NCBI RefSeq assembly: GCF_000017305.1
Contig: NC_009664.2
Coordinates: 420,001-452,000, forward strand
Direction: 5' to 3'
DNA: 32,000 nt
Source: Kineococcus radiotolerans SRS30216 = ATCC BAA-149
GTDB taxonomy: Bacteria; Actinomycetota; Actinomycetes; Actinomycetales; Kineococcaceae
Made by a program: the position numbers and the translations under genes. How positions within the stretch are numbered: the first letter of the stretch is position 1; every line of letters starts with the position of its first letter. Shown here piece after piece: positions 2,361 through 28,613 of this stretch. The notes beneath the pieces were generated by a model. That model saw only the letters and a list, made by a program, of their open reading frames with translations, was not told the DNA's origin and made no database searches.

Positions 2361-4754
2361 TCAGCCCCGGCGCGGGTCCCGCCCGGCCCCGGCGGGCACG
2401 ACGATGGTGTGCATCCAGGCCGGGACGCCCTCCCGCTCCCCGTCCAGGAGCAGCACGACGTAGCGGGCGTCGGGGTTCTCCGGTGGTGGCGCCGCCGGCC
2501 ACGGGGTGTCCCCGTCGGTCATCGTGATGACGAGGTCGAACCGGGGACGGGCCCGGGCCGCGGCCCGCAGCCCCTCCCGCATGTCGGTGCCGCCACCGCC
2601 GACCATCCGCACCTCGCTCATCGAGCGCACCGTGCGCGGCGCCGAGGCCGCCGCGTCGCAGGCGATGACCGTGACGCCCTCCCCGCGGCAGCGGCGCACC
2701 ACGACCGCGGTCTCGGCGTGCACCCGGCTCAGCATCGCGTCGCTGATGGAGCCGGAGGTGTCCACGACCGCCGCGACGCGCGGGGGCCGCGGCTGGCGCA
2801 TCGCGGGCATGACGACGCCGGGGAAGGACGCGGCCCGCCGCGAGGGGCGGGCGTAGGAGTAGTCCCTGACCCCGGCGACGTTGGCGCTGACGCGGCGGGT
2901 GACGCTGTCGAGCTCCCGGCGCCAGTCCACCTCCGGTTCCAGGACGAGGGTGGCCCAGCGCTGCCACCCGGCGGGGACGCTGCCGCAGCTGCGGGCGTGC
3001 TCCAGCACCGCGCGGGCGGTCTGCTGCCGGATCAGCTCCGCCCGGCCCGCGTCGACGCTGCCGTCGTCGCGACCCTCGGCGTCGGTGCCGGACTCGTCCT
3101 GCTCCCAGGCCCGCCGGGGCCCGCCCGCGCCGGAACCGCAGTCGTCGCCGTCGTCACCGTCGTCGCCGTGGTCCTTGTCCCCGTCGCCGGGCCCCGGCGC
3201 GTCCTCCCCCGCCGCCGCGGGGGGGACGTCCGCCGGGTCGGTGTCCTCGCCCGCCGCGTCCGCCCCGAGGCCCGGGGAGGCCGGGGCGGGCGCGCCGCGT
3301 CCGCCGACGGTCAGGGTGGCGAGCGCCTGCTCGTCCCCGGTGGTGAGGACGACGGCGTAGCGCCCCACGTCCAGGGGCCGCAGGAGCGGGACGTGCGCCA
3401 CCGAGGGGCTGCGCACCTCCAGCGGCCCGGTCGCCGCGACCACCTCGGCGGGCTCCCGGGCGGGGTCGAGGACGGCGAGGGTGCTGGTGGCGTCCACGAC
3501 GAGGTCGTCGGTGGTGACGGCGAGGGTCAGCGGGGTCCGGTGACCGGCGGGGAGGGTGGCCGGGTGCAGGGTCAGGAAGGGCCGGCCCACGGGCAGGACG
3601 GCCTGGACGACCTCCGGGCCGGTGGTGGCGCGGACCCGGTGGGTGCCCTCGGGGACCTCGGCGAGGTCGACGGCGAGGTGGGTGGCGCTGACGTGCTCGA
3701 CGCCGGCGACGACGTCGAGGGGGCGCCCGGCGGCGTCGAGGACCTCCACGCGGGAGGTGGCGTCGAAGCGGGTGCCGTCGCCGACGAGGACGACCCGCGC
3801 GGGGCTGCCGTGGCCGCGGACGAGGTGGTCCGGGCGCAGCCGCAGGGTGGGCGTGGTGATCGTGAACCCCGTCCGGGCCCGCTCCTCGCCGCGGGCGACG
3901 ACGACGTCGTAGCGCCCCGGCGGGAGGCGGGTCCCGAGGGTGAACGACCCCTGGCGGGGGCCGCGCACGCGCAGGGCGCCGAGGGCGGGGGTCCCGTCCT
4001 CGCCGGTGACCGGCTCGCCGTCGTCCCCGTGGTCCCCGCCGTCCCCGTCCCGGCCGCTGTCCCGGGCGGGGCGGGGGTGGTGGTGGAGGGTGACCGTCGT
4101 GGAGGCGTCCAGGAGCGGCTCGCGGGTGAAGCAGAGGACGTCGGCGGGCAGGGCGTCGTCGTGGCGGAGGGTGTCGGGCAGCAGGAGCAGGCCGGGGCCG
4201 GGTCCGGCGGGGCGCTGCCCGGCGGGGCCCTGCAGCAGCAGCCGGTAGAGCTGCTCGGCGGTCGAGCCCTCCTCCGCGCCGGGGACCTGCTCGGGGAACC
4301 AGGCCCCCACCGGCGGCGGCTGCACCCCGGCGGCGCGCAGGTCGGCGTTGACGGCGCAGTCGGCGGCGCGGTTCCACAGCCCGGCGCGCGCGGCGGGTTC
4401 GGCGAGGTCGCGGAACCGTTCGGCGTGCCGGCGCAGGGGGTGGCCGACCTCGTGCAGCCAGGCCCCGGCGACCTGTTCGACGGTGAGGGTGGCGATGAAC
4501 CCGGGGTGGTAGGTCATCCGCCAGCGGGTGTCGATGGCGAGGGTGGGCACCCGCGTGCTGGGGACGGCCTTCACCGCGTAGAGCGCGTCCGCCAGGTACG
4601 GCATGAGCTCGGTGGCCCGGGCGCGGCCGGCGGCCAGCCGCAGCCCGGCCCGGCGCAGGAGGTCCTCGTCGGGCGGGGCGTCGCCGGCGCGGCCCGGCGG
4701 GGTCGGGCGCGGGGCGCGGCCGGGCGGGGCGGGGCGGGGGACGGGGCGCGGCAC
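2361..4754 (-). CDS. VWA-domain / putative Zn-metallopeptidase protein (DUF2201-type architecture) with a large beta-rich repeat insert
   Basis: 797 aa. The N-terminal region has HEVGH (HExxH, residues 101-105) followed by NRAADCAVNADL. The C-terminal region has the VWA MIDAS elements VVDTSGS (DxSGS, residues 665-669), GGGGTDM and ITMTDGDT. Residues ~180-545 lie between these two domains and are extra. Its GTG start lies 3 nt after the upstream ATPase stop. Confidence 0.8.
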   Translation of the reverse strand: MPRPVPRPAPPGRAPRPTPPGRAGDAPPDEDLLRRAGLRLAAGRARATELMPYLADALYAVKAVPSTRVPTLAIDTRWRMTYHPGFIATLTVEQVAGAWLHEVGHPLRRHAERFRDLAEPAARAGLWNRAADCAVNADLRAAGVQPPPVGAWFPEQVPGAEEGSTAEQLYRLLLQGPAGQRPAGPGPGLLLLPDTLRHDDALPADVLCFTREPLLDASTTVTLHHHPRPARDSGRDGDGGDHGDDGEPVTGEDGTPALGALRVRGPRQGSFTLGTRLPPGRYDVVVARGEERARTGFTITTPTLRLRPDHLVRGHGSPARVVLVGDGTRFDATSRVEVLDAAGRPLDVVAGVEHVSATHLAVDLAEVPEGTHRVRATTGPEVVQAVLPVGRPFLTLHPATLPAGHRTPLTLAVTTDDLVVDATSTLAVLDPAREPAEVVAATGPLEVRSPSVAHVPLLRPLDVGRYAVVLTTGDEQALATLTVGGRGAPAPASPGLGADAAGEDTDPADVPPAAAGEDAPGPGDGDKDHGDDGDDGDDCGSGAGGPRRAWEQDESGTDAEGRDDGSVDAGRAELIRQQTARAVLEHARSCGSVPAGWQRWATLVLEPEVDWRRELDSVTRRVSANVAGVRDYSYARPSRRAASFPGVVMPAMRQPRPPRVAAVVDTSGSISDAMLSRVHAETAVVVRRCRGEGVTVIACDAAASAPRTVRSMSEVRMVGGGGTDMREGLRAAARARPRFDLVITMTDGDTPWPAAPPPENPDARYVVLLLDGEREGVPAWMHTIVVPAGAGRDPRRG

Positions 4755-4757
4755 GGC

Positions 4758-5912
4758 TCAGCCCCGGCCCTGGCCCTGGCCCTGGCCCTGGAGGAGGTCC
4801 AGCTCCCGCAGGATGGGGGCCAGCCCCCGCACGATCCGCTCGGTGGGCATCGCCCCGCTCGGGCGCGCCGCCGCCCACCGCCGCCCGTGGGAGAACGCGA
4901 TGTCGGCGCTGCCGGCGTCGGCGATGGCGGCCAGGACGGTGCCGCAGTTGACCCACCGCTCCGGGGTGTTCCGCGCGGCCGTGGCCGCCCACACCGACGC
5001 CGCGACGGCGTAGGTCCGGTCGGTGCGGCGGCGGTCCACGACGTAGGAGTCGGGGTCGGCGAGCAGGGTCTCGGGGTCGGGCAGGTCCAGCTCGCGCAGG
5101 TAGTTGAGGAACATCCCGCCCGCGCTGATGCCGACGGTGCCGGCCACGAGCATCGTCACGACCGTGCTGTTGGCCCCCGCGGCCCGGGCGAAGGCGTGCA
5201 GGCGGGCGGCCATCTCCCACGAGCGGGGCGTGGGGAAGGCGCGCCCGGCCTCCTCGGAGGAGCGGGGCAGCTGGGTGACGAGCTCGGGCCGGGAGCCCAG
5301 GAAGACCCCGACCAGGGCGAGGGTCCGGGTCAGCAGGGCCGCGACCTCGCTGTCGTCCACCGCGGGGACCGCCACGGCCGGCCACCCCGTGCTGAACCCC
5401 TCCCGCACGGTGTCCGCGTCCAGCTCCCAGCTGAGGTGGACGAAGCGGTTGGCGACCGGCGGGGCGAGGTCCCACCCGTCGGCGGCGACGTCGGGCGGGT
5501 TGGCGGCGGCGACGGTCCGCACGCCCTCGGGCAGGCGCAGGTCCCCCACCACCCCCTCGAGGATGGGCCGCAGCAGCGCCGCCTGGGTGGCCGGCGGCGC
5601 GGTGGAGACCTCGTCGTAGAACTGGATGCCGAGGCGGCCCTCCTCCACCACCGCGTCGCGCAGGCGCACCGCCCAGGACGGGGCGGCCAGGGAGGCGGTG
5701 CGGGTCACGGGGTCCACGACGGGCAGCCCGGCGAAGTCGCTGGGCTCGCGGATGGAGGCGATGACGGTCTCCAGGTGGGCGTCCAGGCCCCGGGCCAGCT
5801 CCTGCACCACCGAGGACTTCCCCTGCCCGGGCGGCCCCCACAGGATCACCGGGACGTCGGCGAGCAGGGCGACACCCAGGGCGGTGCAGGTGTCGGTGTG
5901 GCGCTGGCTCAT
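4758..5912 (-). CDS. MoxR-class AAA+ ATPase (AAA_5-like)
   Basis: Walker A is ILWGPPGQGKSS and Walker B is IQFYDEVS. I place the start at ATG 5912..5910 (MSQRHTD...) because GGAGGA lies 8 nt upstream. The track ORF start at 5954 has no such site. The C-terminus is (GQ)n. Confidence 0.85.
   Translation of the reverse strand: MSQRHTDTCTALGVALLADVPVILWGPPGQGKSSVVQELARGLDAHLETVIASIREPSDFAGLPVVDPVTRTASLAAPSWAVRLRDAVVEEGRLGIQFYDEVSTAPPATQAALLRPILEGVVGDLRLPEGVRTVAAANPPDVAADGWDLAPPVANRFVHLSWELDADTVREGFSTGWPAVAVPAVDDSEVAALLTRTLALVGVFLGSRPELVTQLPRSSEEAGRAFPTPRSWEMAARLHAFARAAGANSTVVTMLVAGTVGISAGGMFLNYLRELDLPDPETLLADPDSYVVDRRRTDRTYAVAASVWAATAARNTPERWVNCGTVLAAIADAGSADIAFSHGRRWAAARPSGAMPTERIVRGLAPILRELDLLQGQGQGQGRG
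4766..4789. repeat. hexanucleotide microsatellite (GGCCCT)x4
   Basis: Direct reading: ggccct ggccct ggccct ggccct. It encodes the (QG)4 tail of the ATPase, just before its stop and the downstream VWA start. Confidence 0.95.
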
Positions 5913-5991
5913 CCGGTGGTTCCTCCGAGCGGTGGCGTGGGGTGCTGCGCGCATTGTCCAGCCCCCGGTCCCGGCGGGTGAGACTGGTGGG

Positions 5992-7436
5992 GTGTGGCGG
6001 CGTGCGGGGGTGCGGGTCCGGTCGACGGTGGCGGCGACGGCCCTGCTGGCGGTGCTGGTGGCGGCCGGGGCGGTGACGGGGCTGCTGGTGCTGCGCTCGG
6101 CGCTCTACGGCGGGGCTGCGGAGACCGGCTCCGTGCAGGCGCGGCTGGTGCGGCTGTCGGTGACCGAGGAGGTCCTGGCGCAGGGCCCGGCGGGCGCGGA
6201 GGGGACGGGGGACCCGCTCCCGGCGCGGGAGGCGCTGGACGCCGCGGTGGGGGCGCGGGTGGACCGGGGCTCGCACGTCCAGGTGCTCGACGCCTCGGGG
6301 GCGGTGGTGGCGCGCAGCGCGCGGCTGGCGGGGCTGGCGGCGCTGTCCCCGGCGCGGCCGCCCTCGGCGGGCCAGGTCCAGGAGGTGGTGGCCCTGCCGC
6401 AGCTGGGCGGCCGGTCCCGGTGGGTGGTGACGGTGGTGGGCGCGGAGGTCGGGGACCGGCCCTTCTACGTGGTGGTGGCCGAGAGCACCGAGGACGCCGA
6501 CCGGGTGCTGCTGGTGGCGGCCGGGTTGCTGGCCGTGGGCTCCCCCCTGCTGCTGGCGGCGATCGCGGTGGCGACGTGGACGTTCGTGGGGCGCTCGCTG
6601 CGGCCGGTGGAGGCGATCCGGCGCACGGTGGAGGGCATCACCGCGCGGGGCCTGGACGGGCGGGTGCCCGTCCCCGTCGCCGAGGACGAGGTGAGCCGCC
6701 TGGCGCGGACGATCAACGAGGTGCTGGCCCGCCTGGAGCTGGCCCAGCGGGGGCAGCGGCGGTTCGTGGCCGACGCCAGCCACGAGCTGCGCAGCCCGGT
6801 GGCGACGTTGCGCGCGGCGGCGGAGGTGTGGGCGGGGGCGGGTGTCCCGGCGCCGTTCACGGCCCTGGTGCAGGCGGAGAGCGCGCGGCTGGAGGCGCTG
6901 GTCTCGGACCTGCTGGCGCTGGCCCGCGCCGACGAGGGGCGCGCGGTGCGGCAGTGGCAGGAGGTGGACCTCGACGAGGTGGTCGAGTCCGAGGCGGCGC
7001 GGCTGCGGGCGGTCGCCGGGTGCGCCGTGGTGGTCACCACCACCCCCGCGCGGGTGCGCGGCGACGCGGTGGCGCTGGCGCGGGCGGTGCGCAACCTCAG
7101 CGACAACGCGGTCCGCCACGCCGACTCCGCGGTCCGCCTGGAGCTGTCGGTGCGGGACGGGGAGGCGCTGCTGCGGGTCTGCGACGACGGTCCCGGCATC
7201 CCGGTCGGTGAGCGCGAGCGGGTCTTCGAGCGCTTCGTGCGCCTGGACGAGAGCCGTCAGCGCGGGTCCGGGGGGACGGGTCTGGGCCTGCCCATCGTGC
7301 GCGAGACGGTGGCCGCGCACGGGGGCACGGTGCAGGTGGAGGACTCCCCCGGCCGCGGCGCGGTCCTGGCCCTGCGGGTGCCGCTGGCCCCGCCGGACGC
7401 CCCGCCGGACGCCCCACCCGCGGACCGGGCCGGGGG

Positions 7437-7464
<28 letters not shown>
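5992..7464 (+). CDS. sensor histidine kinase (TM - extracytoplasmic loop - TM - HAMP - HisKA - HATPase_c)
   Basis: It lies in the frame of track ORF 5626..7464. The start is set at GTG 5992 (VWRRAGVRVRSTVAATALLAVLVAAG..., first TM helix). H-box is SHELRSPVATL, N-box is NLSDNAVRHA, G-box is GGTGLGLPIVRETVAAHGG. The C-terminal 28 aa are low complexity (PPDAPPDAPP...). Confidence 0.85.
7388..7415. repeat. 12-bp tandem duplication (ccccgccggacg x2.3)
   Basis: Direct reading. It encodes the PPDAPPDAPP stretch in the non-conserved tail of the kinase. Confidence 0.9.
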
Positions 7465-8114
<650 letters not shown>

Positions 8115-10154: not shown

Positions 10155-10340
10155 TCAGGGCCCCGGGTCGGGGGCGTCGCGCAGGTTCGCCTCGACGAGG
10201 GCGACCAGGCCCTCGTCGAGCTCGATGCGGTGCTCACCGCGGCCGTGGGCGACGACCTGGGCCAGGATGTCGTCCCGGTCGGTGCCGAGGAACTCGCGAC
10301 TGCAGCCGGGGACCACGTCCCCGCACCTGAAGGCCTTCAC
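10155..10340 (-). CDS. DUF1059-type small metal-binding protein
   Basis: 61 aa: VKAFRCGDVVPGCSREFLGTDRDDILAQVVAHGRGEHRIELDEGLVALVEANL. This fits the DUF1059 pattern (xxFxCxDxxxxC...H....H). Its GTG overlaps the stop of the upstream EAL gene as GTGA. Confidence 0.7.
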   Translation of the reverse strand: MKAFRCGDVVPGCSREFLGTDRDDILAQVVAHGRGEHRIELDEGLVALVEANLRDAPDPGP

Positions 10341-11485
10341 GCGCCCATCCTCCACGGGTGTCGACGCTGTCCGGACGAAGGGGTGGCCGCGAGGTCGAGG
10401 ACGACGTCCTCGACCCCGACGAGCCCGATGTAGCGCCCGGCGGAGTCGGTGCAGACCACCGGGTCGAAGCGCACGGGGCCGGCTCGCGCCAGGGCGCGCT
10501 CGGCGGCCTCGGGGACGGGCGTCTCCGGGGCCAGGCGCAGGTCGACGGTCTCCACGCGGGGGTGCTCCCCCGGCCGCTGCCCGGGCAGCACGATGACCCG
10601 GGGGACGTCCTCGCCGTCGACGACGACGACGGGGGCGACGTCCTCGACCGCGATCCGCACCGCGCCGGGGACGGTGTGGGCGGTCTTGGTGCGCCGGGCC
10701 AGGTCGCCGGTGCGGCGCACCGGGGCCAGCGGGAGGCGCTGGGGTCCCTGCAGCAGCTGCAGCGCCTCGGGGCTGAGGCCGGCGAAGTCCCCGGTGGGGC
10801 GGGCCAGCAGGAAGCCCTGCACCAGCGGGACGCCCATCCCGCGCAGCACGTCGAGCTCGGCGACGGTCTCCACGCCCTCGGCGATGATCCAGGCGTCCAG
10901 GCGCCCGGCGCACTCCCCCAGGAACTGCACCAGCGAGCGCTTGACCAGGTCGTCCTGCAGGCCGCGGACCAGCTGCAGGTCGACCTTGAGGATCTCCGGG
11001 CGCACCACGGCCATCCGCAGCAGCCCGGAGTGGCCGGTGCCGACGTCGTCGAGGGCCACGATGGCCCCCCGGGCGCGCAGCGCCTCGAGCGGTCCGACGA
11101 GCTCGCGCGGGTCGCACGCGGCGTGCTCGGTGAGCTCGAGGACGACGCCGGTGAGGTCGTGGGCCTGCAGGACGGACATCACGCCCGGGTCGGCCAGGGA
11201 GGTGGGGCTGGCGTTGACGGTGAGGAAGGCGCCGGGGGGCAGCCGGTCGAGCAGGGCCAGGCCGCGGCGCAGGACGACGCGGTCGAGGTCGGCGTCGCGG
11301 TTGAGGGCGCGCGCGGCGCGGAACCAGTCCTCCGTGGGCAGGTCGGAGGGGAGCCGGCTGAGGACCTCGTAGCCGGCCACCCGTCCCGCGGCGACGTCGA
11401 CGACGGGGTGCAGGACGAGGCGCAGCAGCGCGGGGTCGGCGCAGACGGCGTCGAGGCGGTGGTGCCAGCGGGCACGGTGGGACAT
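10337..11485 (-). CDS. EAL-domain (c-di-GMP phosphodiesterase-type) protein with a C-terminal CBS pair
   Basis: 382 aa from ATG 11485 (MSHRARWHH...). EAL-family motifs present: GYEVLSRL (an EVL variant of EAL), LTVNASP, ELTEH, ALDDVGTGHSGL, LKVDLQLV, IIAEGVET, QGFLLARP. The C-terminal ~110 aa look like a CBS pair (VVVVDGEDVPRVIV..., VVCTDSAGRYIGLVGVEDVV). Confidence 0.8.
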   Translation of the reverse strand: MSHRARWHHRLDAVCADPALLRLVLHPVVDVAAGRVAGYEVLSRLPSDLPTEDWFRAARALNRDADLDRVVLRRGLALLDRLPPGAFLTVNASPTSLADPGVMSVLQAHDLTGVVLELTEHAACDPRELVGPLEALRARGAIVALDDVGTGHSGLLRMAVVRPEILKVDLQLVRGLQDDLVKRSLVQFLGECAGRLDAWIIAEGVETVAELDVLRGMGVPLVQGFLLARPTGDFAGLSPEALQLLQGPQRLPLAPVRRTGDLARRTKTAHTVPGAVRIAVEDVAPVVVVDGEDVPRVIVLPGQRPGEHPRVETVDLRLAPETPVPEAAERALARAGPVRFDPVVCTDSAGRYIGLVGVEDVVLDLAATPSSGQRRHPWRMGA

Positions 11486-11630
11486 CCCCCTCACAGCGCC
11501 GCCCCCCCTCAGACCGTCACTCCAGGTGGTTGTACCCGCCGCGCCCGAGATGAACCCTCCGTGAAGGGATCGTGCAGGTGCGTGACGGTGCCCGAGCATA
11601 TAGCGGTAGTCGCCCGGTGACCCACCGCTC

Positions 11631-12785
11631 ATGGCGGGGAACCTCAAGGAGCTCCGCGAGGTGGTCGATCCCTCCCGGGTGAACCCACGATCGCTGCCCG
11701 CCCTCCTGCTGGCCCTCGGCCTGGGAGCCGGGGCGCTCGCGGCGGCCGGACCCGCGCGCGCCGAACCGGTGAGCGCCGCGCAGGCCCGGGTCGAGGCGGC
11801 CGCGGCGGAGCGGGCGGTGGACGTGGCCACGGCCCGGGTCGCCGCCGCCCGGGAGGCCCACGCCGCCCAGCAGCGCGAGGTCGCGAGCGCGGTGAGCGCG
11901 AGCGTGGGGACCCAGGTGGAGGCCGAGCGCGCGCAGGGGGCGGCCCGGTCGGTGCGGGCGGCGGCGGCGCAGCGGGTGCGCTCGATGTACATGGGCGGGG
12001 CGTCCACGGAGGCCGGGCGCGGCCTGGCCCTGCTCTCCTCCCTGACCCGCGGCGGGGACCCGACGGTGGCCCTGGCGGGGATGGCGGCCGCGCGGCGGGC
12101 CGACGTGGCCGCGCAGGGGGCGGCGCAGGCGCGGGCCGCGACGGCGGCCGACGCGGCGCGGGCCGCCGGCGGGGGCGCGGTCGCGGCGGTGGCGGGGCTG
12201 GGCGAGGTCGCCGCGCAGGTGGGCGCGATGAGCGAGGCGCTGGCCGCGGCGCAGCGGCAGGTGGCCGCCCTGACCGCGGAGGCATCGCGGTTGCAGGCCG
12301 CCGAGGACGCCGCCGCCGCGCTCGCCGCGGCGCAGGCGCAGGCCGCGGCGGTGCAGGCACAGGCGCAGGCCGCGGCGGCGGTGGTGCCCGCGCGCGAGGT
12401 CGCGACCGACTACTCCGACCTGTACGTGCGGGCCGCGGCGACGTGCGCGGGGATGCGGCCGGCGCTGCTGGCGGCGGTGGGCCAGGTGGAGAGCGGTCAC
12501 GGCCGCACCACCGGGCCGAGCTCCGCGGGGGCGCTGGGGCCGATGCAGTTCATGCCCGCGACGTTCGCCGCCTACGGCGTGGACGGCGGCGGCGACGGGG
12601 TGCGGGACGTGCAGGACCCCGCCGACGCGGTGTTCAGCGCGGCGAACTACCTGTGCGCCAACGGGGGCGGGAAGGGCCGCGACGGGGAGTCGGGGGCGTT
12701 GTTCCGCTACAACCACGCCGACTGGTACGTGACGATGGTGCAGCGCATCGCCGACGAGCTCCAGGCCGGCGGCTTCGGCGCCTGA
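11631..12785 (+). CDS. secreted lytic transglycosylase (SLT-like domain) with an Ala-rich coiled-coil N-terminal region
   Basis: The signal-like segment is RSLPALLLALGLGAGALAAAGPARA/EP. A long Ala/Gln/Arg-rich helical region follows. The C-terminal catalytic-type block is LLAAVGQVESGHGR...GALGPMQFMPATFAAYGVDGGGDG...AANYLCANGG...FRYNHADWYV. The start could instead be GTG 11679. Confidence 0.8.
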   Translation: MAGNLKELREVVDPSRVNPRSLPALLLALGLGAGALAAAGPARAEPVSAAQARVEAAAAERAVDVATARVAAAREAHAAQQREVASAVSASVGTQVEAERAQGAARSVRAAAAQRVRSMYMGGASTEAGRGLALLSSLTRGGDPTVALAGMAAARRADVAAQGAAQARAATAADAARAAGGGAVAAVAGLGEVAAQVGAMSEALAAAQRQVAALTAEASRLQAAEDAAAALAAAQAQAAAVQAQAQAAAAVVPAREVATDYSDLYVRAAATCAGMRPALLAAVGQVESGHGRTTGPSSAGALGPMQFMPATFAAYGVDGGGDGVRDVQDPADAVFSAANYLCANGGGKGRDGESGALFRYNHADWYVTMVQRIADELQAGGFGA

Positions 12786-12827
12786 CCCGGGACGGGACCC
12801 CGCCCCGGGTCCGGGGCCGGGGTCAGG
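12781..12827. terminator. imperfect inverted repeat spanning two convergent stop codons (candidate bidirectional terminator)
   Basis: Outer arms CCTGACCC (12781-12788) and GGGTCAGG (12820-12827). Inner stem GGACCC (12795-12800) and GGGTCC (12807-12812). No U-tract. Confidence 0.3.
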
Positions 12828-13599
12828 TCTCGTCCAGGCGCAGCACCGTGGTCCCCGACAGCGTCCGCACCTCCACGCTGGCGATCTGGGCGCGGGTCCA
12901 GGACGTGGCGCCGCTGAGCTGGGCGTCGCGCCCGGGCAGCGCGGTCCAGGTCCCGATCTGCTGGGTGGCGCCCGCGGTGTCGGAGACGACGAGGGCGTAG
13001 GGGTGCGGCTGCTCGGCCTCGGCGTGGGCGTAGGCGCAGACGAGGTCCACCTGGGTGCCCCAGCCCACCTCGGTGAGCTGGACGGTGGCGGTGACCGGGA
13101 CCGGCAGCAGCGGGTCCATCGCCTGCACCCGCCCCGGCCCGGGGGACGCCCCCGGGCCGGCGCTGGACGGGGCACTGGAGGGGGCGCCCGGCAGCGCGGA
13201 GGGGACCGCGGGGGCCGACGGGTCGCCGCCGGACCACGCGAACGCCCCGGCGAGCGCCGCGGCCAGGCCCAGCCCGCCGACGAGCGCCGCGCGGCGGGTG
13301 GTGCGCCGGCGCCGGACCGCGCGCAGCAGGGCGGGCAGGACGGTGTCGGGCACCGCGTCCTCGCCGAGACCGCGCTCGCGCAGCGCGGCCGCGGGGTCCT
13401 CCCGGCCGAGGGCGTCGACGACGTCGCGGGGGGTGCGGGAGAGCAGCCCGGGCAGGCCGGCGAGCCCCTCGACGGCGTGGCGGCAGTCCGGGCAGGTGCG
13501 CAGGTGGGTCTCGAAGGCGCTGCGCTCGGCGGGGGCGAGGGCGCCGAGGACGTAGGGGCCGGCGGTGGTGGCGAAGGGGTCGTCGCGGTCGGCGTCCAT
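12823..13599 (-). CDS. membrane-spanning anti-sigma factor, zinc-binding (ZAS, HxxxCxxC) type
   Basis: 258 aa from ATG 13599..13597 (MDADRDDPFATTAGPYVLGAL...). The ZAS motif is HLRTCPDCRH. A single TM segment is ALVGGLGLAAALAGAFAW, followed by an extracytoplasmic domain of ~130 aa. The ATG overlaps the sigma-factor stop as ATGA. Confidence 0.8.
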   Translation of the reverse strand: MDADRDDPFATTAGPYVLGALAPAERSAFETHLRTCPDCRHAVEGLAGLPGLLSRTPRDVVDALGREDPAAALRERGLGEDAVPDTVLPALLRAVRRRRTTRRAALVGGLGLAAALAGAFAWSGGDPSAPAVPSALPGAPSSAPSSAGPGASPGPGRVQAMDPLLPVPVTATVQLTEVGWGTQVDLVCAYAHAEAEQPHPYALVVSDTAGATQQIGTWTALPGRDAQLSGATSWTRAQIASVEVRTLSGTTVLRLDET

Positions 13600-14105
13600 C
13601 AGCGGCTCACCCCCATCTCCTGCAGGGCCAGCCGGAGGTTCATCAGGGCGTAGTGGGTGCGCGACTTCACCGTGCCCTCCGGGATGGCCAGGGTGCGGGC
13701 GGCCTCGGCGACGGAACGGCCGCGGAAGTAGCACTCGCCCAGCACGGCGCGGTGCTCGGGCGAGAGGCGGGTGAGGGCCTGGGTGACGACCCACTGCTGC
13801 AGGACCTGCTCGGACTCGTCGACGACGACGCGGTCGGGGACGTCGGCGTGGACGCTCTCGCGGCGGTTGCGCGCGGAGCGCCAGTCGTCGATGACGAGGC
13901 GGCGGGCGACGGTGAAGAGCCACCCGCGGGTGGAGCCGCGGGCGGGGTCGAGGGACTCCGGGTGGCGCCAGGCGCGCAGCAGGGTCTCCTGCACGACGTC
14001 GTGGGCGCTGGCCCGGTCCCCGGTCAGCGACACGACGTAGCTCCACAGGGCCCCGGCGTGCTCGTCGTGCAGCGCCCGCACGAGCTCCTCGTCGGCCTCG
14101 GTCAT
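13599..14105 (-). CDS. ECF (group 4) sigma-70 family RNA polymerase sigma factor
   Basis: 168 aa. Region 2 is DVVQETLLRAWRH...WLFTVARRLVIDDWR. Region 4 is LSPEHRAVLGECYFRGRSVAEAARTLAIPEGTVKSRTHYALMNLR. Confidence 0.9.
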   Translation of the reverse strand: MTEADEELVRALHDEHAGALWSYVVSLTGDRASAHDVVQETLLRAWRHPESLDPARGSTRGWLFTVARRLVIDDWRSARNRRESVHADVPDRVVVDESEQVLQQWVVTQALTRLSPEHRAVLGECYFRGRSVAEAARTLAIPEGTVKSRTHYALMNLRLALQEMGVSR

Positions 14106-17089: not shown

Positions 17090-17377
17090 GTGCGGGACGA
17101 TGACCCCGTGCCCGACCAGTCCGTACCGCGCGCCGTGGCCGACGCCGTCGCCGACTTCGTCGACCGGGAGGCCCGCTCCTCCGAGCCCCTCTTCGGCCTG
17201 GCCGACGCCGACGCCCGCGCCCGCGCCGGCTGGGCCTCCTTCGTCCGGCAGTACCGCCGAGCCGTGCGCGACGAGCGCGAGCTGACCGCCGACAACCTCG
17301 CTCGCGTGCTCCTGGACATCGCCTCGCTGTTCCGGCACGCGGAGGGGTTCGACGTCCGGTGGCTGGCCTGGGCGTGA
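17090..17377 (+). CDS. small hypothetical protein (95 aa, acidic, helical)
   Basis: Track ORF. G/C-ending codons run throughout when read by hand. It starts 18 bp after the GNAT stop. No family recognised. Confidence 0.5.
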   Translation: MRDDDPVPDQSVPRAVADAVADFVDREARSSEPLFGLADADARARAGWASFVRQYRRAVRDERELTADNLARVLLDIASLFRHAEGFDVRWLAWA

Positions 17378-17497
17378 GCCCGCGGGCGCCGCGTCGCGCG
17401 GTGAACGGGTCCGGGGTGGTGGGCGGGGCGCACCGCCCCTAGCGTTCGCCGCGGGTCGCGGCAGCAGCCGCCGACCCCCGCGCTCCCAGGAGGTTCC

Positions 17498-18436
17498 GTG
17501 CCGGCCGAGGCCACCACCCGTCCCGAACTCGTCCCGCTCGGGCCCGGCGCCCACGACCTGATCCACTTCTCCCTCGTCGTGGCCGGGTTCGCCCTCCTGG
17601 CCCACTTCCTGCGGACCTGGCACTCCACCGGCGAGGTGAGCGCCCGGTACCGCCCCGCGGTGCTGGCCTCCCTGGCCGTCACCGGCGTCGCGTTCCTCTC
17701 CTACGTCTACCTCGTCCTGGAGTTCGACCAGGGCTACGACCTGCGCGAGGGGGTGTACCAGCCCAACGCCGAGGCCCTGAACACCCTGGTGCCGCGCTAC
17801 ATGGACTGGGCCGTCACCGTCCCGCTGCTGATGGTCGAGTTCCTCGCCGTGTCGGCGGTGGTGGGGGCGGCGGCCCGCCGAACCCGGTTCACGCTGGTGG
17901 GCCTGGCGTTCCTGATGATCCTCACGGGGTTCATCGGTGCCGCGGTGCAGGAGGACGGGACCAGCCGGACCGCCCTGATCGCCTGGGGGGTCGTCTCCAG
18001 CGCGTTCTACGCCGCGCTGCACGTGGTGCTGATCCGGGTGCTGCGCCGGTCCCGGGGCGCGATGGGCGCGCAGGCGTACACCAGCTACCGCAACGCCACG
18101 ATCCTCCTGCTGAGCGTCTGGGGCTGGTACCCGATCGCCTACGCCCTCCAGGTCTGGTTCGGGGGCCAGTGGTGGACGGTGACGATCCAGGTCGGTTTCA
18201 GCGCCGCCGACATCGCCGCCAAGGTCGGCTTCGGTGCGCTGATCCACAAGGTCGCGAAGCTGCGCACGGCCGAGGAGGTCGAGGCGGGGTCGACGACCCA
18301 CCCGGAGGAGGTCTGGATCTCCTCCGTCCGGTTCTCCGAGGGCGTCCAGCCCGTCCTCAAGGGGGTGCTCGGCCCGGACCACCACGACCACCACGGCGGG
18401 CGGGTCGACCCGGCCGGGGACCCCGGGCACCACTAG
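17498..18436 (+). CDS. type-1 microbial rhodopsin (7-TM retinal protein, DTE motif; predicted light-driven proton pump)
   Basis: 312 aa with seven hydrophobic helices. Helix C is R100-YMD103-WAVT107-VPLLMVE114-F (compare proteorhodopsin RYIDWLLTVPLLICEF and BR RYADWLFTTPLLLLDL). Helix F is SVWGWYPIAY (PR GWAIYPVGY). Helix G is AAD238-IAAK242-VGFG (BR DVSAKVGFG), with the Lys codon aag at 18221-18223. AGGAGG lies 4 nt upstream of the GTG start. Confidence 0.85.
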   Translation: MPAEATTRPELVPLGPGAHDLIHFSLVVAGFALLAHFLRTWHSTGEVSARYRPAVLASLAVTGVAFLSYVYLVLEFDQGYDLREGVYQPNAEALNTLVPRYMDWAVTVPLLMVEFLAVSAVVGAAARRTRFTLVGLAFLMILTGFIGAAVQEDGTSRTALIAWGVVSSAFYAALHVVLIRVLRRSRGAMGAQAYTSYRNATILLLSVWGWYPIAYALQVWFGGQWWTVTIQVGFSAADIAAKVGFGALIHKVAKLRTAEEVEAGSTTHPEEVWISSVRFSEGVQPVLKGVLGPDHHDHHGGRVDPAGDPGHH

Positions 18437-18493
18437 ACCCGCGGCCCGGACCGGGCCCGCACCGCCGGCGCGCCCGGACCCCCACCGCGGGTC
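18436..18493. terminator. candidate structured region between the convergent rhodopsin and 193-aa genes
   Basis: GACCCGCGG (18436-18444) is complementary to CCGCGGGTC (18485-18493). Small internal GC palindromes are present (CCCGGaCCGGG, GGCGCGCC). No U-tract. Confidence 0.25.
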
Positions 18494-18509
18494 CGGACGC
18501 GCCGTCGTC

Positions 18510-19091
18510 CTAGCGGGCGCGGTTCAGCCGGCGCAGCGCCGCGGAGGCGCCGACGGCGATCCCGGTCCCGGCCGCCACCCAGGGCCCGGCGACGACGAGG
18601 GGGTCCATCCAGGTGTGCTTCACGTCCGCCCGGCCCCGGCCCACCCGCGAGCGGATCCCGTGGTGGGAGAACTCCGCCCGGACCCCGGTCTCGGTGAACG
18701 GGTTGTCGGGCCGCTTCGACGCGTACGAGGCGGCGGTGCTCTCCAGGGTGTCGATGCGGTCCGCGGCGACGAGCAGCAGCCAGTGCGCGGCACGGCCCTC
18801 GCTGAAGCGGCGGTACGCGTAGCGGCGCACGACCCCGGACAGCCCCTTCGGCGGGCAGGCCGTGCTGAACACGGGGGTGAGGAACGCGTGCTCGATCGAG
18901 CGCTCGCGGGGGTGCAGCTCCGGCTGGCGCTCGGGGAACTCCCAGCGCGCGCCGTAGGCACCCGGGTCGAACACCTCCTGCGGCACCGAGGGGCGGCCCG
19001 CCGGGTCGAGGTCGACCCCCCACCCGGGGATGCGGGCCCGCAGCTGCTCGCTCGTCTCGGGCAGCGGCGGTTTCTGCGGCCGGTAGGCCAT
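18510..19091 (-). CDS. hypothetical protein with a C-terminal membrane anchor (193 aa)
   Basis: Track ORF with good GC3. GGAGG lies in the 9-bp spacer after the upstream dehydrogenase stop. The C-terminal hydrophobic helix is PLVVAGPWVAAGTGIAVGASAAL. No family recognised. Confidence 0.6.
   Translation of the reverse strand: MAYRPQKPPLPETSEQLRARIPGWGVDLDPAGRPSVPQEVFDPGAYGARWEFPERQPELHPRERSIEHAFLTPVFSTACPPKGLSGVVRRYAYRRFSEGRAAHWLLLVAADRIDTLESTAASYASKRPDNPFTETGVRAEFSHHGIRSRVGRGRADVKHTWMDPLVVAGPWVAAGTGIAVGASAALRRLNRAR

Positions 19092-26075: not shown

Positions 26076-28613
<2,538 letters not shown>

What the first reader, a model, noticed from the sequence alone, without database searches (positions are those of the whole stretch)
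17498..18436. Complete type-1 microbial rhodopsin (DTE motif) with a His-rich C-terminal extension and no retinal pathway in view
Seen in sequence:
- Seven hydrophobic helices.
- All hallmark retinal-pocket and proton-transfer residues: R100, D103 (acceptor), T107, E114 (donor, as in the proteorhodopsin/xanthorhodopsin DTE type), W208/Y211/P212 in helix F, D238, and the Schiff-base K242 (aag 18221-18223) within DIAAKVGFG.
- Leu at the spectral-tuning position (BR L93 / PR 105), which would predict green absorption.
- A tail of ~60 residues after helix G, ending in DHHDHHGG...GHH, which is not part of the canonical fold.
- By my tentative alignment, the helix-B His that partners the counterion in proteorhodopsin-type pumps is Ser here (AFLSYVYL against AFWHYMYM).
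- A W163-G164 pair in helix E that may correspond to the Gly permitting a carotenoid antenna in xanthorhodopsin.

Established knowledge: rhodopsins occur in some Actinobacteria (actinorhodopsins, Rubrobacter rhodopsin).

Inference: one embedded among housekeeping genes of a very high-G+C heterotroph, with no crt or blh genes within the surrounding sequence, raises the questions of chromophore source and physiological role.
Basis: partly seen in the sequence, partly recalled or inferred. Interest (0 to 1): 0.7.

Follow-up and report, generated by a model that had tools for sequence, protein, structure and literature searches.

The report
Known Kineococcus rhodopsin (KrActR), CryoR-like fold
The gene is a real, intact light-sensing membrane protein, but it is the already catalogued and already purified rhodopsin of Kineococcus radiotolerans, so it is a correct but not a new find; its transport activity and its source of retinal remain unmeasured.

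Summary
The ORF 17498-18436 (+) encodes a 312-aa type-1 rhodopsin.

It is not new. The sequence is identical to ABS03281.1 / UniProt A6W8Z2 of Kineococcus radiotolerans SRS30216. This is almost certainly "KrActR", which was expressed and purified in 2018 (λmax 532 nm, pentamer, long C-terminal tail noted).

Its nearest structural relatives are the cryorhodopsins CryoR1 and CryoR2, not proteorhodopsin or xanthorhodopsin. It is not a CryoR, however: it has Ser58 instead of the defining Arg, and no DUF7882 transducer gene is adjacent.

The "non-canonical tail" has two parts:
- Residues 250-290 form a highly conserved, confidently folded module that matches the CryoR cytoplasmic cap.
- Residues 291-312 are variable and predicted disordered, and they are His-rich. 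His-rich distal tails recur in about 20% of family members.

No crt or blh gene lies in the 32 kb. In four of seven other Kineococcus loci, blh follows the rhodopsin directly. No close Blh ortholog of K. radiotolerans turned up.

The most likely function is a green-absorbing outward proton pump. This is inferred; I found no transport measurement.

The parts
17488..17493 (+). Shine-Dalgarno sequence AGGAGG, 4 nt upstream of the GTG start
   Evidence: Read directly from the sequence. It supports 17498 as the true start. Homolog N-termini align there as well.
17498..18436 (+). Rhodopsin CDS (312 aa plus stop). Identical to K. radiotolerans SRS30216 ABS03281.1 / A6W8Z2, probably KrActR.
17543..18247 (+). 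Seven-helix transmembrane core (residues ~16-250). Model helices: 16-42, 49-78, 98-117, 123-154, 157-185, 191-220, and 224 onward. A B-C loop beta-hairpin spans 80-89.
   Evidence: AlphaFold2 model, pLDDT 94.1. Foldseek match to CryoR1 8r0l_A: rmsd 1.0 A, TM 0.98.
17669..17671 (+). Codon of Ser58 (= BR T46). This is the position of the defining Arg (R57) of cryorhodopsins.
   Evidence: Alignment to BR and to CryoR1/2. The position is S/G/A/H, never R, in 120 homologs.
17804..17839 (+). Helix C functional triad: D103 (17804-17806), T107 (17816-17818), L111 (tuning position), E114 (17837-17839).
   Evidence: D103 and T107 are invariant and E114 is at least 90% conserved.
18221..18223 (+). Codon of the Schiff-base lysine K242 (AAG)
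   Evidence: Aligns with BR K216. Invariant in 120 homologs.
18245..18367 (+). Conserved C-terminal module, residues 250-290 (HKVAKLRTAEEVEAGSTTHPEEVWISSVRFSEGVQPVLKGV). It comprises the cytoplasmic continuation of helix G to residue 263, then a beta-hairpin at 272-274 and 277-280.
   Evidence: R256, A258 and P269 are invariant. H250, K251, T257, G264, H268, E270, W273, S275, S280, V283 and P285 are at least 90% conserved. pLDDT is 89-98. The module aligns with and superposes on the CryoR1/2 C-terminal cap.
18368..18433 (+). Variable distal tail, residues 291-312 (LGPDHHDHHGGRVDPAGDPGHH). 6 of 22 residues are His, and the tail is predicted disordered.
   Evidence: pLDDT is 61, 54 and 44 over the last three 10-residue blocks. 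The alignment columns are gappy and unconserved. His-rich tails recur in 36 of 181 homologs.
18441..18507 (.). G+C-rich hairpins in the 73-nt gap before the convergent gene. Likely a factor-independent, bidirectional terminator without a U-tract.
   Evidence: MFE -48.8 kcal/mol, z = -2.82 against shuffles. The consensus terminator scan found nothing, so the function is inferred.

Best explanation
This is the rhodopsin gene of Kineococcus radiotolerans, probably the protein known as KrActR. It is a green-absorbing, pentameric type-1 rhodopsin.

**Clade.** It belongs to a large group of soil and rock Actinomycetota rhodopsins with motif S/G/A-R-D-T-E-D-K. These proteins share a conserved 40-residue cytoplasmic C-terminal cap with the cryorhodopsins.

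**Most likely mechanism (inferred).** It acts as a light-driven outward proton pump:
1. Retinal is bound at K242.
2. The Schiff-base proton passes to D103, with D238 as the second counterion and T107 as helper.
3. The Schiff base is reprotonated from E114. This residue is free to act as donor because the position that holds the proton-blocking Arg in cryorhodopsins is Ser58 here.

**The tail.** The cap (residues 250-290) probably closes the cytoplasmic face of the pentamer, as it does in CryoR1 and CryoR2. The last 22 residues form a disordered, His-rich appendage of unknown, possibly metal-binding, role.

**Retinal supply.** The gene is a stand-alone transcription unit with no chromophore genes nearby. 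Retinal must come from the organism's separately encoded carotenoid pathway through a cleavage enzyme other than a close Blh ortholog, or from outside the cell.
For: **Identity.**
- The sequence exactly matches ABS03281.1 / WP_011981580.1 / A6W8Z2, carried on a 4,761,183-bp contig.
- KrActR was purified as a coloured protein with λmax 532 nm and forms pentamers with long C-terminal tails (PMC5974397).

**Fold and pocket.**
- PF01036 matches at E=2.5e-28.
- All pocket and transfer residues are at BR-equivalent positions.
- The model has pLDDT 94.

**Clade.**
- CryoR1 and CryoR2 are the best PDB relatives by sequence and by fold.
- In the NJ tree the protein sits in a 41-tip SRDTEDK/W clade. That clade is sister to the Microbacteriaceae group containing CryoRs, and the DTEF clade lies outside both.

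**Pump rather than CryoR-type sensor.**
- Ser58 replaces the Arg. The CryoR1 R57T mutant shows ~100x faster M decay, and the Arg is what keeps the donor Glu deprotonated (PMC12227055).
- DUF7882 lies immediately upstream of the rhodopsin in 13 of 13 Arg-bearing loci. It is adjacent in no non-Arg locus and is absent from the window.
- Related DTEF rhodopsins of Geodermatophilus (50-55% identical) pump H+ outward in E. coli (bioRxiv 10.1101/2024.05.16.594530).
- blh follows the rhodopsin directly in 18 related loci, the usual arrangement for light-energy operons.

**Stand-alone unit.** The gene has a strong RBS and a downstream hairpin. Its neighbours are not shared with any of 80 loci.
Against: - I found no measurement of transport for KrActR. 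Shibata 2018 calls it a proton pump only through the actinorhodopsin label of Sharma 2008. PMC11790970 notes that KrActR clusters apart from true actinorhodopsins.
- Sister DSE rhodopsins also lack the Arg. They cycle in seconds and barely pump, and mutating DSE to DTE rescued only one of three (PMC10865882).
- There are no proton-release carboxylates on the extracellular side (BR E194/E204 = W220/I230).
- The C-terminal cap is as conserved here as in the putative sensors. A pure pump role does not explain that.
- No close Blh ortholog of K. radiotolerans appeared in a 5.8-billion-protein search, so chromophore supply is unproven.
- The equation with KrActR rests on species name and matching properties. 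No accession is cited in the text I could read.
Confidence: 0.62

Rival explanations
1. It is a slow-cycling photosensor, or a weak pump that needs a partner, like the DSE rhodopsins and cryorhodopsins. In this reading the conserved C-terminal cap is a docking surface for a cytoplasmic partner encoded elsewhere in the genome.
For: - The closest solved relatives are the CryoRs, proposed UV sensors (PMC12227055).
- The cap residues are more conserved than much of the membrane core across ~190 Arg-less homologs.
- DSE rhodopsins and two of their three DTE mutants do not pump.
- DUF7882 is a very large family (3,462 clusters), and a copy lies 4 kb from an Arg-less rhodopsin in L073. A distant, unlinked copy in K. 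radiotolerans is therefore not excluded.
Against: - There is no Arg at BR-T46, no adjacent DUF7882, and no kinase or transducer gene conserved next to the rhodopsin.
- Truncating the CryoR1 C-terminus changed neither the photocycle nor the oligomer, so the cap is not tied to slow cycling.
- Direct linkage to blh in relatives and the measured outward pumping of the DTEF relatives both favour an energy role.
Confidence: 0.23
2. The gene encodes an opsin that is not functional in this host. K. radiotolerans kept the rhodopsin but lacks the blh partner that sister species carry just downstream, so no holoprotein forms unless retinal is scavenged.
For: - blh directly follows the rhodopsin in Kineococcus loci L001 (partial match), L002, L003 and L006, but not here.
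- No Blh hit lies on a 4.76-Mb contig among the best 120 of 159 hits.
- No crt or blh gene is in the window.
Against: - The ORF is intact, with a strong RBS, GC3 of 0.98 and every functional residue preserved.
- A near-identical protein occurs in another K. radiotolerans genome, in the same 90%-identity cluster.
- K. radiotolerans has CrtB and CrtI (PMC2889829).
- An actinobacterium with no known cleavage gene still makes retinal and pumps (PMC7734400).
- Three other Kineococcus loci also lack an adjacent blh.
Confidence: 0.1

Closest known systems
KrActR (Kineococcus radiotolerans 'actinorhodopsin'; Shibata et al. 2018, PMC5974397)
   Same: The species is the same. The window protein is identical to the K. 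radiotolerans SRS30216 rhodopsin. The reported properties fit: a long tail after helix G, green absorption (532 nm) consistent with L111, and pentamers like CryoR1/2.
   Different: Probably nothing, since it is most likely the same protein. The paper gives no accession in the text I could read, so identity is about 90% certain. Its "proton pump" and "actinorhodopsin" labels were assigned, not measured.
Cryorhodopsins CryoR1/CryoR2 (PDB 8r0k/8r0l, 8r0p; Lamm et al. 2025, PMC12227055)
   Same: - They are the best sequence and fold relatives: 46% and 43% identity, rmsd 1.0 A over 281 columns, TM 0.98.
- Both have a long N-terminus and a conserved C-terminal cap.
- H250 and R39 are equivalents of the cytoplasmic-cavity residues.
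- The helix-B His is absent in both.
   Different: - Ser58 replaces the defining Arg (R57), so the motif is SRDTEDK rather than RRXXXDK.
- No DUF7882 gene is adjacent.
- The host is a mesophilic Kineosporiales bacterium, not a cold-adapted member of the Microbacteriaceae.
- The counterion is Asp, not Glu.
DTEF rhodopsins of Geodermatophilaceae (GobFR, GdiFR; Tarlachkov et al., bioRxiv 10.1101/2024.05.16.594530)
   Same: - Same superclade, 50-55% identity.
- Same D-T-E triad, same conserved C-terminal module and the same WG pair.
- His/Asp-rich distal tails are frequent.
- blh is often directly downstream.
- They were shown to pump H+ outward.
   Different: - They have Phe at BR-W182, whereas this protein has W208.
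- They have Gly or Ala at BR-T46.
- Their pumping in E. coli required high Ca2+, which is untested for this protein.
DSE rhodopsins of Micrococcales (Marin et al. 2023, PMC10865882)
   Same: They lack the Arg, have elongated termini, and are named as the closest relatives of the CryoRs. No blh lies within 5 kb.
   Different: They have Ser instead of T107. They are flanked by Ser/Thr kinases, which is not seen here. They have a very slow photocycle with little or no pumping. I could not place them in my tree because I had no sequences.
Xanthorhodopsin / Gloeobacter rhodopsin / proteorhodopsin (DTE outward pumps)
   Same: Same D-T-E triad, Leu at the tuning position, and Gly at the antenna fenestration position (G164 aligned with the W-G pair of GR). 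GR even shares the seven-letter motif SRDTEDK.
   Different: - Identity to GR is only 36%, and E-values are about 40 orders of magnitude weaker than for the CryoRs.
- The counterion-partner His of helix B is Ser68 here.
- They have no conserved C-terminal cap.

Membership tests
Type-1 microbial rhodopsin (Pfam PF01036) | Significant match to the family profile | tested here: met
   E=2.5e-28, 99.5 bits against a cutoff of 24.6.
Type-1 microbial rhodopsin (Pfam PF01036) | Seven transmembrane helices with the Schiff-base Lys in helix G | tested here: met
   The AF2 model has 7 helices, pLDDT 94. K242 aligns with BR K216.
Type-1 microbial rhodopsin (Pfam PF01036) | Binds retinal and is coloured | not testable with these tools
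   From the literature only: KrActR λmax is 532 nm (PMC5974397).
Cryorhodopsins (CryoR) | Arg at the BR-T46 position (motif RRXXXDK) | tested here: not met
   The residue is Ser58 and the motif is SRDTEDK.
Cryorhodopsins (CryoR) | Adjacent, co-oriented DUF7882 (PF25355) transducer gene | tested here: not met
   Present in 13 of 13 RRDTEDK loci. Absent from the window by tblastn and by profile search.
Cryorhodopsins (CryoR) | Elongated conserved C-terminus forming a cytoplasmic cap | tested here: met
   The alignment with CryoR1 extends to residue 287. The model superposes at 1.0 A including the tail.
Cryorhodopsins (CryoR) | [quoted passage not shown] | not testable with these tools
   Needs flash photolysis.
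PR/XR-type DTE outward proton pumps | Asp acceptor, Thr, and Glu donor in helix C | tested here: met
   D103, T107, E114.
PR/XR-type DTE outward proton pumps | Helix-B His paired with the counterion (by my knowledge PR H75 / XR H62; the His of GR in the alignment) | tested here: not met
   Ser68 aligns with the GR His. The position is S or A in 120 of 120 homologs.
PR/XR-type DTE outward proton pumps | Closest sequence relatives are PR, XR or GR | tested here: not met
   GR 5e-30 and XR 4e-29, against CryoR1 7e-74.
PR/XR-type DTE outward proton pumps | Light-driven outward H+ transport | not testable with these tools
   No measurement found for this protein.
Actinorhodopsins sensu stricto (RlActR/RpActR, XR family) | Clusters with freshwater actinobacterial ActR inside the XR family | not tested
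   I had no RlActR sequence. PMC11790970 states that KrActR and QsActR fall in a different clade. The XR-family proxies GR and XR are distant.
DTEF rhodopsins (Geodermatophilaceae) | Phe at BR-W182 | tested here: not met
   The residue is W208. 71 of 120 homologs have F and 49 have W.
DSE rhodopsins | Ser at BR-T89 | tested here: not met
   The residue is T107.
Long-C-terminus actinobacterial DTE(W) rhodopsins (Kineococcus, Friedmanniella, Lapillicoccus group) | Motif SRDTEDK with W at BR-182, the conserved HKVAKLRTAED...THPE.VW.S.V module, and clustering together | tested here: met
   A 41-tip SRDTEDK/W clade in the NJ tree. Module conservation is shown.

The most novel reading that the evidence does not exclude
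**Proposal.** The disordered His/Asp-rich distal tail is a cytoplasmic divalent-metal-binding element that tunes the activity or assembly of the pentameric pump. In the window protein it reads DHHDHH...GHH. In some Geodermatophilus relatives it carries up to 15 His in HD/HE repeats.

**Geometry.** If the distal tails follow the cap towards the pentamer axis, five of them (about 30 His) would cluster near the conserved C-terminal cap.

**What it might explain.**
- Why Geodermatophilus DTEF rhodopsins needed high Ca2+ to pump in E. coli.
- A possible link to the unusual copper accumulation of K. radiotolerans.

**Second reading not excluded.** K. radiotolerans may make retinal without any Blh, by an undescribed cleavage route.
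Probability: 0.12. Interest if true: 0.55.

Novelty: already known. Interest (0 to 1): 0.22.

Why it matters
As a discovery it matters little. The gene is annotated in GenBank and UniProt and the protein has been purified. Three points are still useful:

1. **Mislabelling.** KrActR is called an "actinorhodopsin proton pump", but it belongs to the CryoR/DSE/DTEF superclade. Characterised members of that superclade range from outward pumps to minutes-slow UV sensors. Its function should therefore be measured, not assumed.
2. **The C-terminal cap.** In CryoRs its conservation was explained by transducer binding. The cap is just as conserved in about 190 Arg-less relatives that have no adjacent transducer gene, so it needs another explanation.
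3. **A natural comparison for retinal supply.** Within one genus, some species carry rhodopsin-blh pairs and others, including K. radiotolerans, carry the rhodopsin alone. This could help address how blh-less actinobacteria obtain retinal.

Tried and rejected
- **CryoR membership.** Rejected: Ser58 instead of Arg, and no DUF7882.
- **Conserved operon with the flanking small ORFs.** Rejected. The ORFs at 17090-17377 (+) and 18510-19091 (-) have no homolog in any of 80 rhodopsin loci and no Pfam or NCBIfam match.
- **Hidden blh or a blh remnant downstream.** Rejected. The gap to the next gene is only 73 nt, and there is no tblastn or profile hit.
- **Source genome in the GTDB representative set.** Not found; the best match was K. 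rubinsiae at 74%. Identity came from the exact-sequence look-up instead.
- **Blh in K. radiotolerans.** No hit among the 120 listed of 159. This is suggestive, not proof, because 39 weaker hits were not shown.
- **DUF7882 in K. radiotolerans.** Uninformative. The family has 3,462 clusters, and the 120 hits shown were Microbacteriaceae or unnamed.
- **Accession numbers, or Kineococcus together with blh, in the literature and the CryoR supplements.** Nothing found.
- **Consensus promoter and terminator scan.** Found nothing in this 75% G+C DNA.
- **KrActR sequence from the Shibata supplement.** It is held only as an image.
Full report

Yes.
- The ORF 17498..18436 (+) starts with GTG and encodes 312 residues.
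- The start is supported by an AGGAGG Shine-Dalgarno sequence at 17488-17493, 4 nt upstream. It is also supported by the aligned N-termini of homologs.
- Third-position G+C is 0.98, as in the other real genes of this 75-80% G+C window.
- Pfam Bac_rhodopsin matches at E=2.5e-28.

I used bacteriorhodopsin as a ruler. A MAFFT alignment of 125 sequences gives these equivalences:
- S58 = T46
- R100 = R82
- D103 = D85
- T107 = T89
- L111 = L93
- E114 = D96
- W208 / Y211 / P212 = W182 / Y185 / P186
- D238 = D212
- A241 = A215
- K242 = K216

- Ser68 aligns with the helix-B His of Gloeobacter rhodopsin, which by my knowledge corresponds to PR H75 and XR H62.
- W163-G164 aligns with BR W137-W138 and with the W-G pair of Gloeobacter rhodopsin. 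By my knowledge this is the position of the antenna-permitting Gly (XR G156).

**2. What is it, exactly?**

An exact-sequence look-up shows the protein is ABS03281.1 / WP_011981580.1 / UniProt A6W8Z2. This is the "bacteriorhodopsin" of Kineococcus radiotolerans SRS30216, encoded on a 4,761,183-bp contig, which is the chromosome. The same gene order recurs in 23 assembled contigs from public sequencing runs.

A K. radiotolerans rhodopsin was expressed in E. coli and purified by Shibata et al. 2018 under the name KrActR.
- Its λmax is 532 nm.
- It forms ring-shaped pentamers in high-speed AFM.
- The authors remarked on its long tail after helix G (PMC5974397).

These properties fit the window protein. 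I could not find the accession in the readable text, so I put the equation at about 90%. Either way, the gene is annotated and catalogued, so the finding is not new.

**3. Which family?**

| Comparison | CryoR1 | CryoR2 | Gloeobacter rhodopsin | Xanthorhodopsin |
|---|---|---|---|---|
| Sequence search of the PDB (E-value) | 7e-74 | 4e-64 | 5e-30 | 4e-29 |
| Identity in my alignment | 46.5% | 43% | 36% | not computed |

An AlphaFold2 model built on 120 homologs has pLDDT 94.1 and pTM 0.89.
- It superposes on the CryoR1 cryo-EM structure 8r0l_A at 1.0 A over 281 columns, with TM 0.98 normalised to CryoR1.
- TR, GR and XR reach only TM ~0.73 normalised to the query.

PMC11790970 independently notes that KrActR and QsActR cluster away from true actinorhodopsins.

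**4. Is it a cryorhodopsin?**

No. Lamm et al. 2025 define CryoRs by three things (PMC12227055):
- the motif RRXXXDK, with a unique Arg at the BR-T46 position (R57);
- a co-transcribed putative transducer, DUF7882 / PF25355;
- an origin in cold-adapted Microbacteriaceae.

The window protein has Ser58, so its motif is SRDTEDK. Among its 120 best homologs this position is S (60), G (37), A (18) or H (3), and never R.

I fetched 80 genomic loci of relatives.
- Thirteen have RRDTEDK, all from Microbacteriaceae or unclassified Actinomycetota MAGs. All thirteen carry a DUF7882 gene immediately upstream of the rhodopsin, within about 400 bp and in some loci overlapping its start. Pfam confirms the family at E=1.8e-36.
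- No Arg-less locus has an adjacent DUF7882 gene. One has a copy 4 kb away.
- The window has none by tblastn or by profile search.

Arg and transducer therefore co-occur strictly, and this protein has neither.

**5. Placement within the superclade.**

A neighbour-joining tree of 195 distinct sequences was built on 285 well-aligned columns and rooted on BR.
- The protein falls in a 41-tip clade that is uniformly SRDTEDK with Trp at BR-182, apart from one SRDTQDK member. The clade includes Kineococcus (65-74% identity), Friedmanniella, Lapillicoccus and many soil metagenome sequences.
- Its sister is the Microbacteriaceae group that contains the CryoRs.
- The large DTEF group (Geodermatophilus, Blastococcus, Modestobacter, Klenkia, Nocardioides) lies outside both.

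This is a rough tree without support values.

**6. The tail.**

*Residues 250-290.* The sequence is HKVAKLRTAEEVEAGSTTHPEEVWISSVRFSEGVQPVLKGV. These are among the most conserved residues of the protein.
- R256, A258 and P269 are invariant.
- H250, K251, T257, G264, H268, E270, W273, S275, S280, V283 and P285 are at least 90% conserved over 120 homologs.
- In the model, helix G continues to residue 263 and a beta-hairpin follows (272-274, 277-280). pLDDT is 89-98.
- The segment aligns with and superposes on the C-terminal elongation that caps the cytoplasmic centre of the CryoR1 and CryoR2 pentamers.

*Residues 291-312.* The sequence is LGPDHHDHHGGRVDPAGDPGHH.
- These residues fall in gappy, unconserved alignment columns.
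- pLDDT is 61, 54 and 44 over the last three blocks.

His-richness is nevertheless a recurrent trait of these distal tails.
- Pooled His content is 6.5%, against 1.6% in the cores.
- 36 of 181 tails have at least 4 His.
- Several Geodermatophilus tails are extreme, for example 15 His in 50 residues. G. dictyosporus has 13 in 52 and G. obscurus has 7 in 40.

The trait appears in several lineages but is not universal. The ARDTEDK/F subgroup has 1.5% His.

**7. Genomic context and chromophore.**

I ran Pfam scans of all plausible genes in the window. They identify:
- MoxR / VWA
- a two-component system
- an amino-acid permease
- EAL-CBS
- a lytic transglycosylase
- an ECF sigma / anti-sigma pair
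- APH
- PNP oxidase
- a GNAT / FemAB-like protein
- Zn-ADH
- an HTH regulator
- an M24 peptidase
- SelO
- RNase J
- TauE
- a UvrA-like protein
- SRPBCC
- an epimerase
- PhoD

There is no phytoene synthase, phytoene desaturase, lycopene cyclase or Blh. Profile searches of all six frames find neither BCD nor DUF7882.

None of the immediate neighbours accompanies the rhodopsin in any of the 80 loci. The only faint synteny is an M24 peptidase near the rhodopsin in three Kineococcus loci.

A Brp/Blh gene (PF15461, E=8e-49) behaves differently.
- It lies directly downstream of the rhodopsin in 18 loci. These include Kineococcus L001 (an 87-residue partial match about 200 bp downstream), L002, L003 and L006.
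- It lies ~1.4 kb away in six Curtobacterium loci.
- L068 also carries a Blh hit, but its rhodopsin ORF was not resolved.
- Three other Kineococcus loci resemble K. radiotolerans in having no adjacent blh.

I searched 5.8 billion proteins with the K. gypseus Blh. The search returned Blh from three named Kineococcus species. None was from K. radiotolerans, and none sat on a 4.76-Mb contig, among the 120 listed of 159 hits. A close ortholog is therefore very probably absent, but a distant one is not excluded.

Two published facts bear on this.
- K. radiotolerans does have CrtB and CrtI (PMC2889829).
- Another actinobacterium with no known cleavage gene makes retinal and pumps protons (PMC7734400).

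The chromophore question is thus real, but it is an instance of a known puzzle.

The gene ends 73 nt before a convergent gene. That gap folds into strong G+C-rich hairpins (-48.8 kcal/mol, z = -2.8), a plausible terminator.

**8. Mechanism.**

Shown:
- the fold
- the positions of the pocket residues
- the family placement
- the absence of the Arg and of the transducer
- from the literature, colour and pentamer formation

Inferred: outward proton pumping, with D103 as acceptor and E114 as donor.

The inference rests on four points.
- The D-T-E triad is intact.
- In CryoRs it is the Arg that keeps the donor Glu deprotonated and blocks reprotonation. R57T accelerates M decay about 100-fold.
- DTEF relatives at 50-55% identity pump outward.
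- Relatives have the rhodopsin-blh linkage.

The main caveats are these.
- Arg-less DSE rhodopsins, and two of their three DTE mutants, barely pump and cycle in seconds.
- The DTEF pumps needed high Ca2+ in E. coli.
- I found no transport measurement for KrActR. The "proton pump" label in Shibata 2018 comes from the actinorhodopsin classification of Sharma 2008.

I therefore give the pump reading about 0.6, a sensor or regulated weak pump about 0.23, and a chromophore-less relic about 0.1.

**9. What remains unexplained.**

Lamm et al. suggested that transducer binding explains the conservation of the CryoR C-terminus. The same module is equally conserved in about 190 Arg-less relatives that have no adjacent transducer gene. 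In addition, truncating it in CryoR1 changed neither kinetics nor oligomer. Its selective value is unknown.

The recurrent His/Asp-rich distal tails, hung on this cap near the pentamer axis, could bind divalent metals. The Ca2+ dependence of Geodermatophilus DTEF rhodopsins fits this idea. The G. dictyosporus and G. obscurus loci here, which probably encode GdiFR and GobFR, carry very His/Asp-rich tails. The copper accumulation of K. radiotolerans also fits. All of this is suggestive but untested.

**10. Verdict.**

The reading of the sequence was correct and careful. The object is an already known and partly characterised protein of a described clade. Novelty: already known. Interest is low (0.22). 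The residual value lies in the unmeasured function, the unexplained cap, and the retinal supply without blh.

Noticed in passing
window 17090-17377 (+) and 18510-19091 (-): Two orphan genes flank the rhodopsin. One encodes 89-95 aa and looks helical. The other encodes 193 aa and has a C-terminal hydrophobic segment. Both have coding-type GC3 (0.96-0.98). Neither has a significant Pfam or NCBIfam match, and neither has a homolog in any of 80 related rhodopsin loci.
   Followed up: partly
L001-L080 (e.g. L003:10804-12030, L006:10878-12089): A Brp/Blh beta-carotene dioxygenase gene directly follows the rhodopsin in 18 related loci, including four Kineococcus species. It is missing next to the rhodopsin in K. 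radiotolerans, K. rubinsiae, K. vitellinus and Kineococcus sp. SYSU DK010. This gives a within-genus contrast of rhodopsin with and without an adjacent blh.
   Followed up: partly
L053, L057, L058, L060, L062, L063, L067, L069, L071, L072, L074, L076, L079: DUF7882 lies immediately upstream of the rhodopsin in 13 of 13 Arg-bearing (RRDTEDK) loci and next to none of the Arg-less ones. The family is very large (3,462 clusters at E<=1e-3), with several paralogs per Subtercola genome. NCBI often misnames it 'ATP-dependent DNA ligase'.
   Followed up: partly
L015 (G. dictyosporus), L017 (G. obscurus), L018, L036, P0120, P0083, P0054: These family members have extreme His/Asp/Glu-rich C-terminal tails, with up to 15 His in 50 residues arranged in HD/HE repeats. 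[quoted passage not shown] A link is possible but untested.
   Followed up: no
window 12823-14105 (-): An ECF sigma factor (13599-14105) is paired with a zf-HC2 anti-sigma factor (12823-13560) about 3.4 kb upstream of the rhodopsin. Weakly similar ECF sigma genes lie ~2 kb upstream of the rhodopsin in L022, L049 and L056 (29-32% identity). The similarity is probably generic.
   Followed up: partly
window 18441-18507: The 73-nt gap between the convergent rhodopsin and 193-aa genes folds into strong G+C-rich hairpins (-48.8 kcal/mol, z = -2.8) with no U-tract. The consensus terminator scan misses them.
   Followed up: yes
window 2361-5954 (-), 5626-8114, 10337-12007 (-), 26076-28613 (+): Other genes in the window:
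- a MoxR AAA ATPase with a DUF2201 metallopeptidase/VWA partner
- a HAMP histidine kinase convergent with, and overlapping at its 3' end, an OmpR-type response regulator gene
- an EAL-CBS protein
- an 845-aa UvrA-like ABC protein

The longest ORFs of the kinase and the MoxR gene overlap by ~330 bp, so the kinase probably starts further downstream.
   Followed up: no
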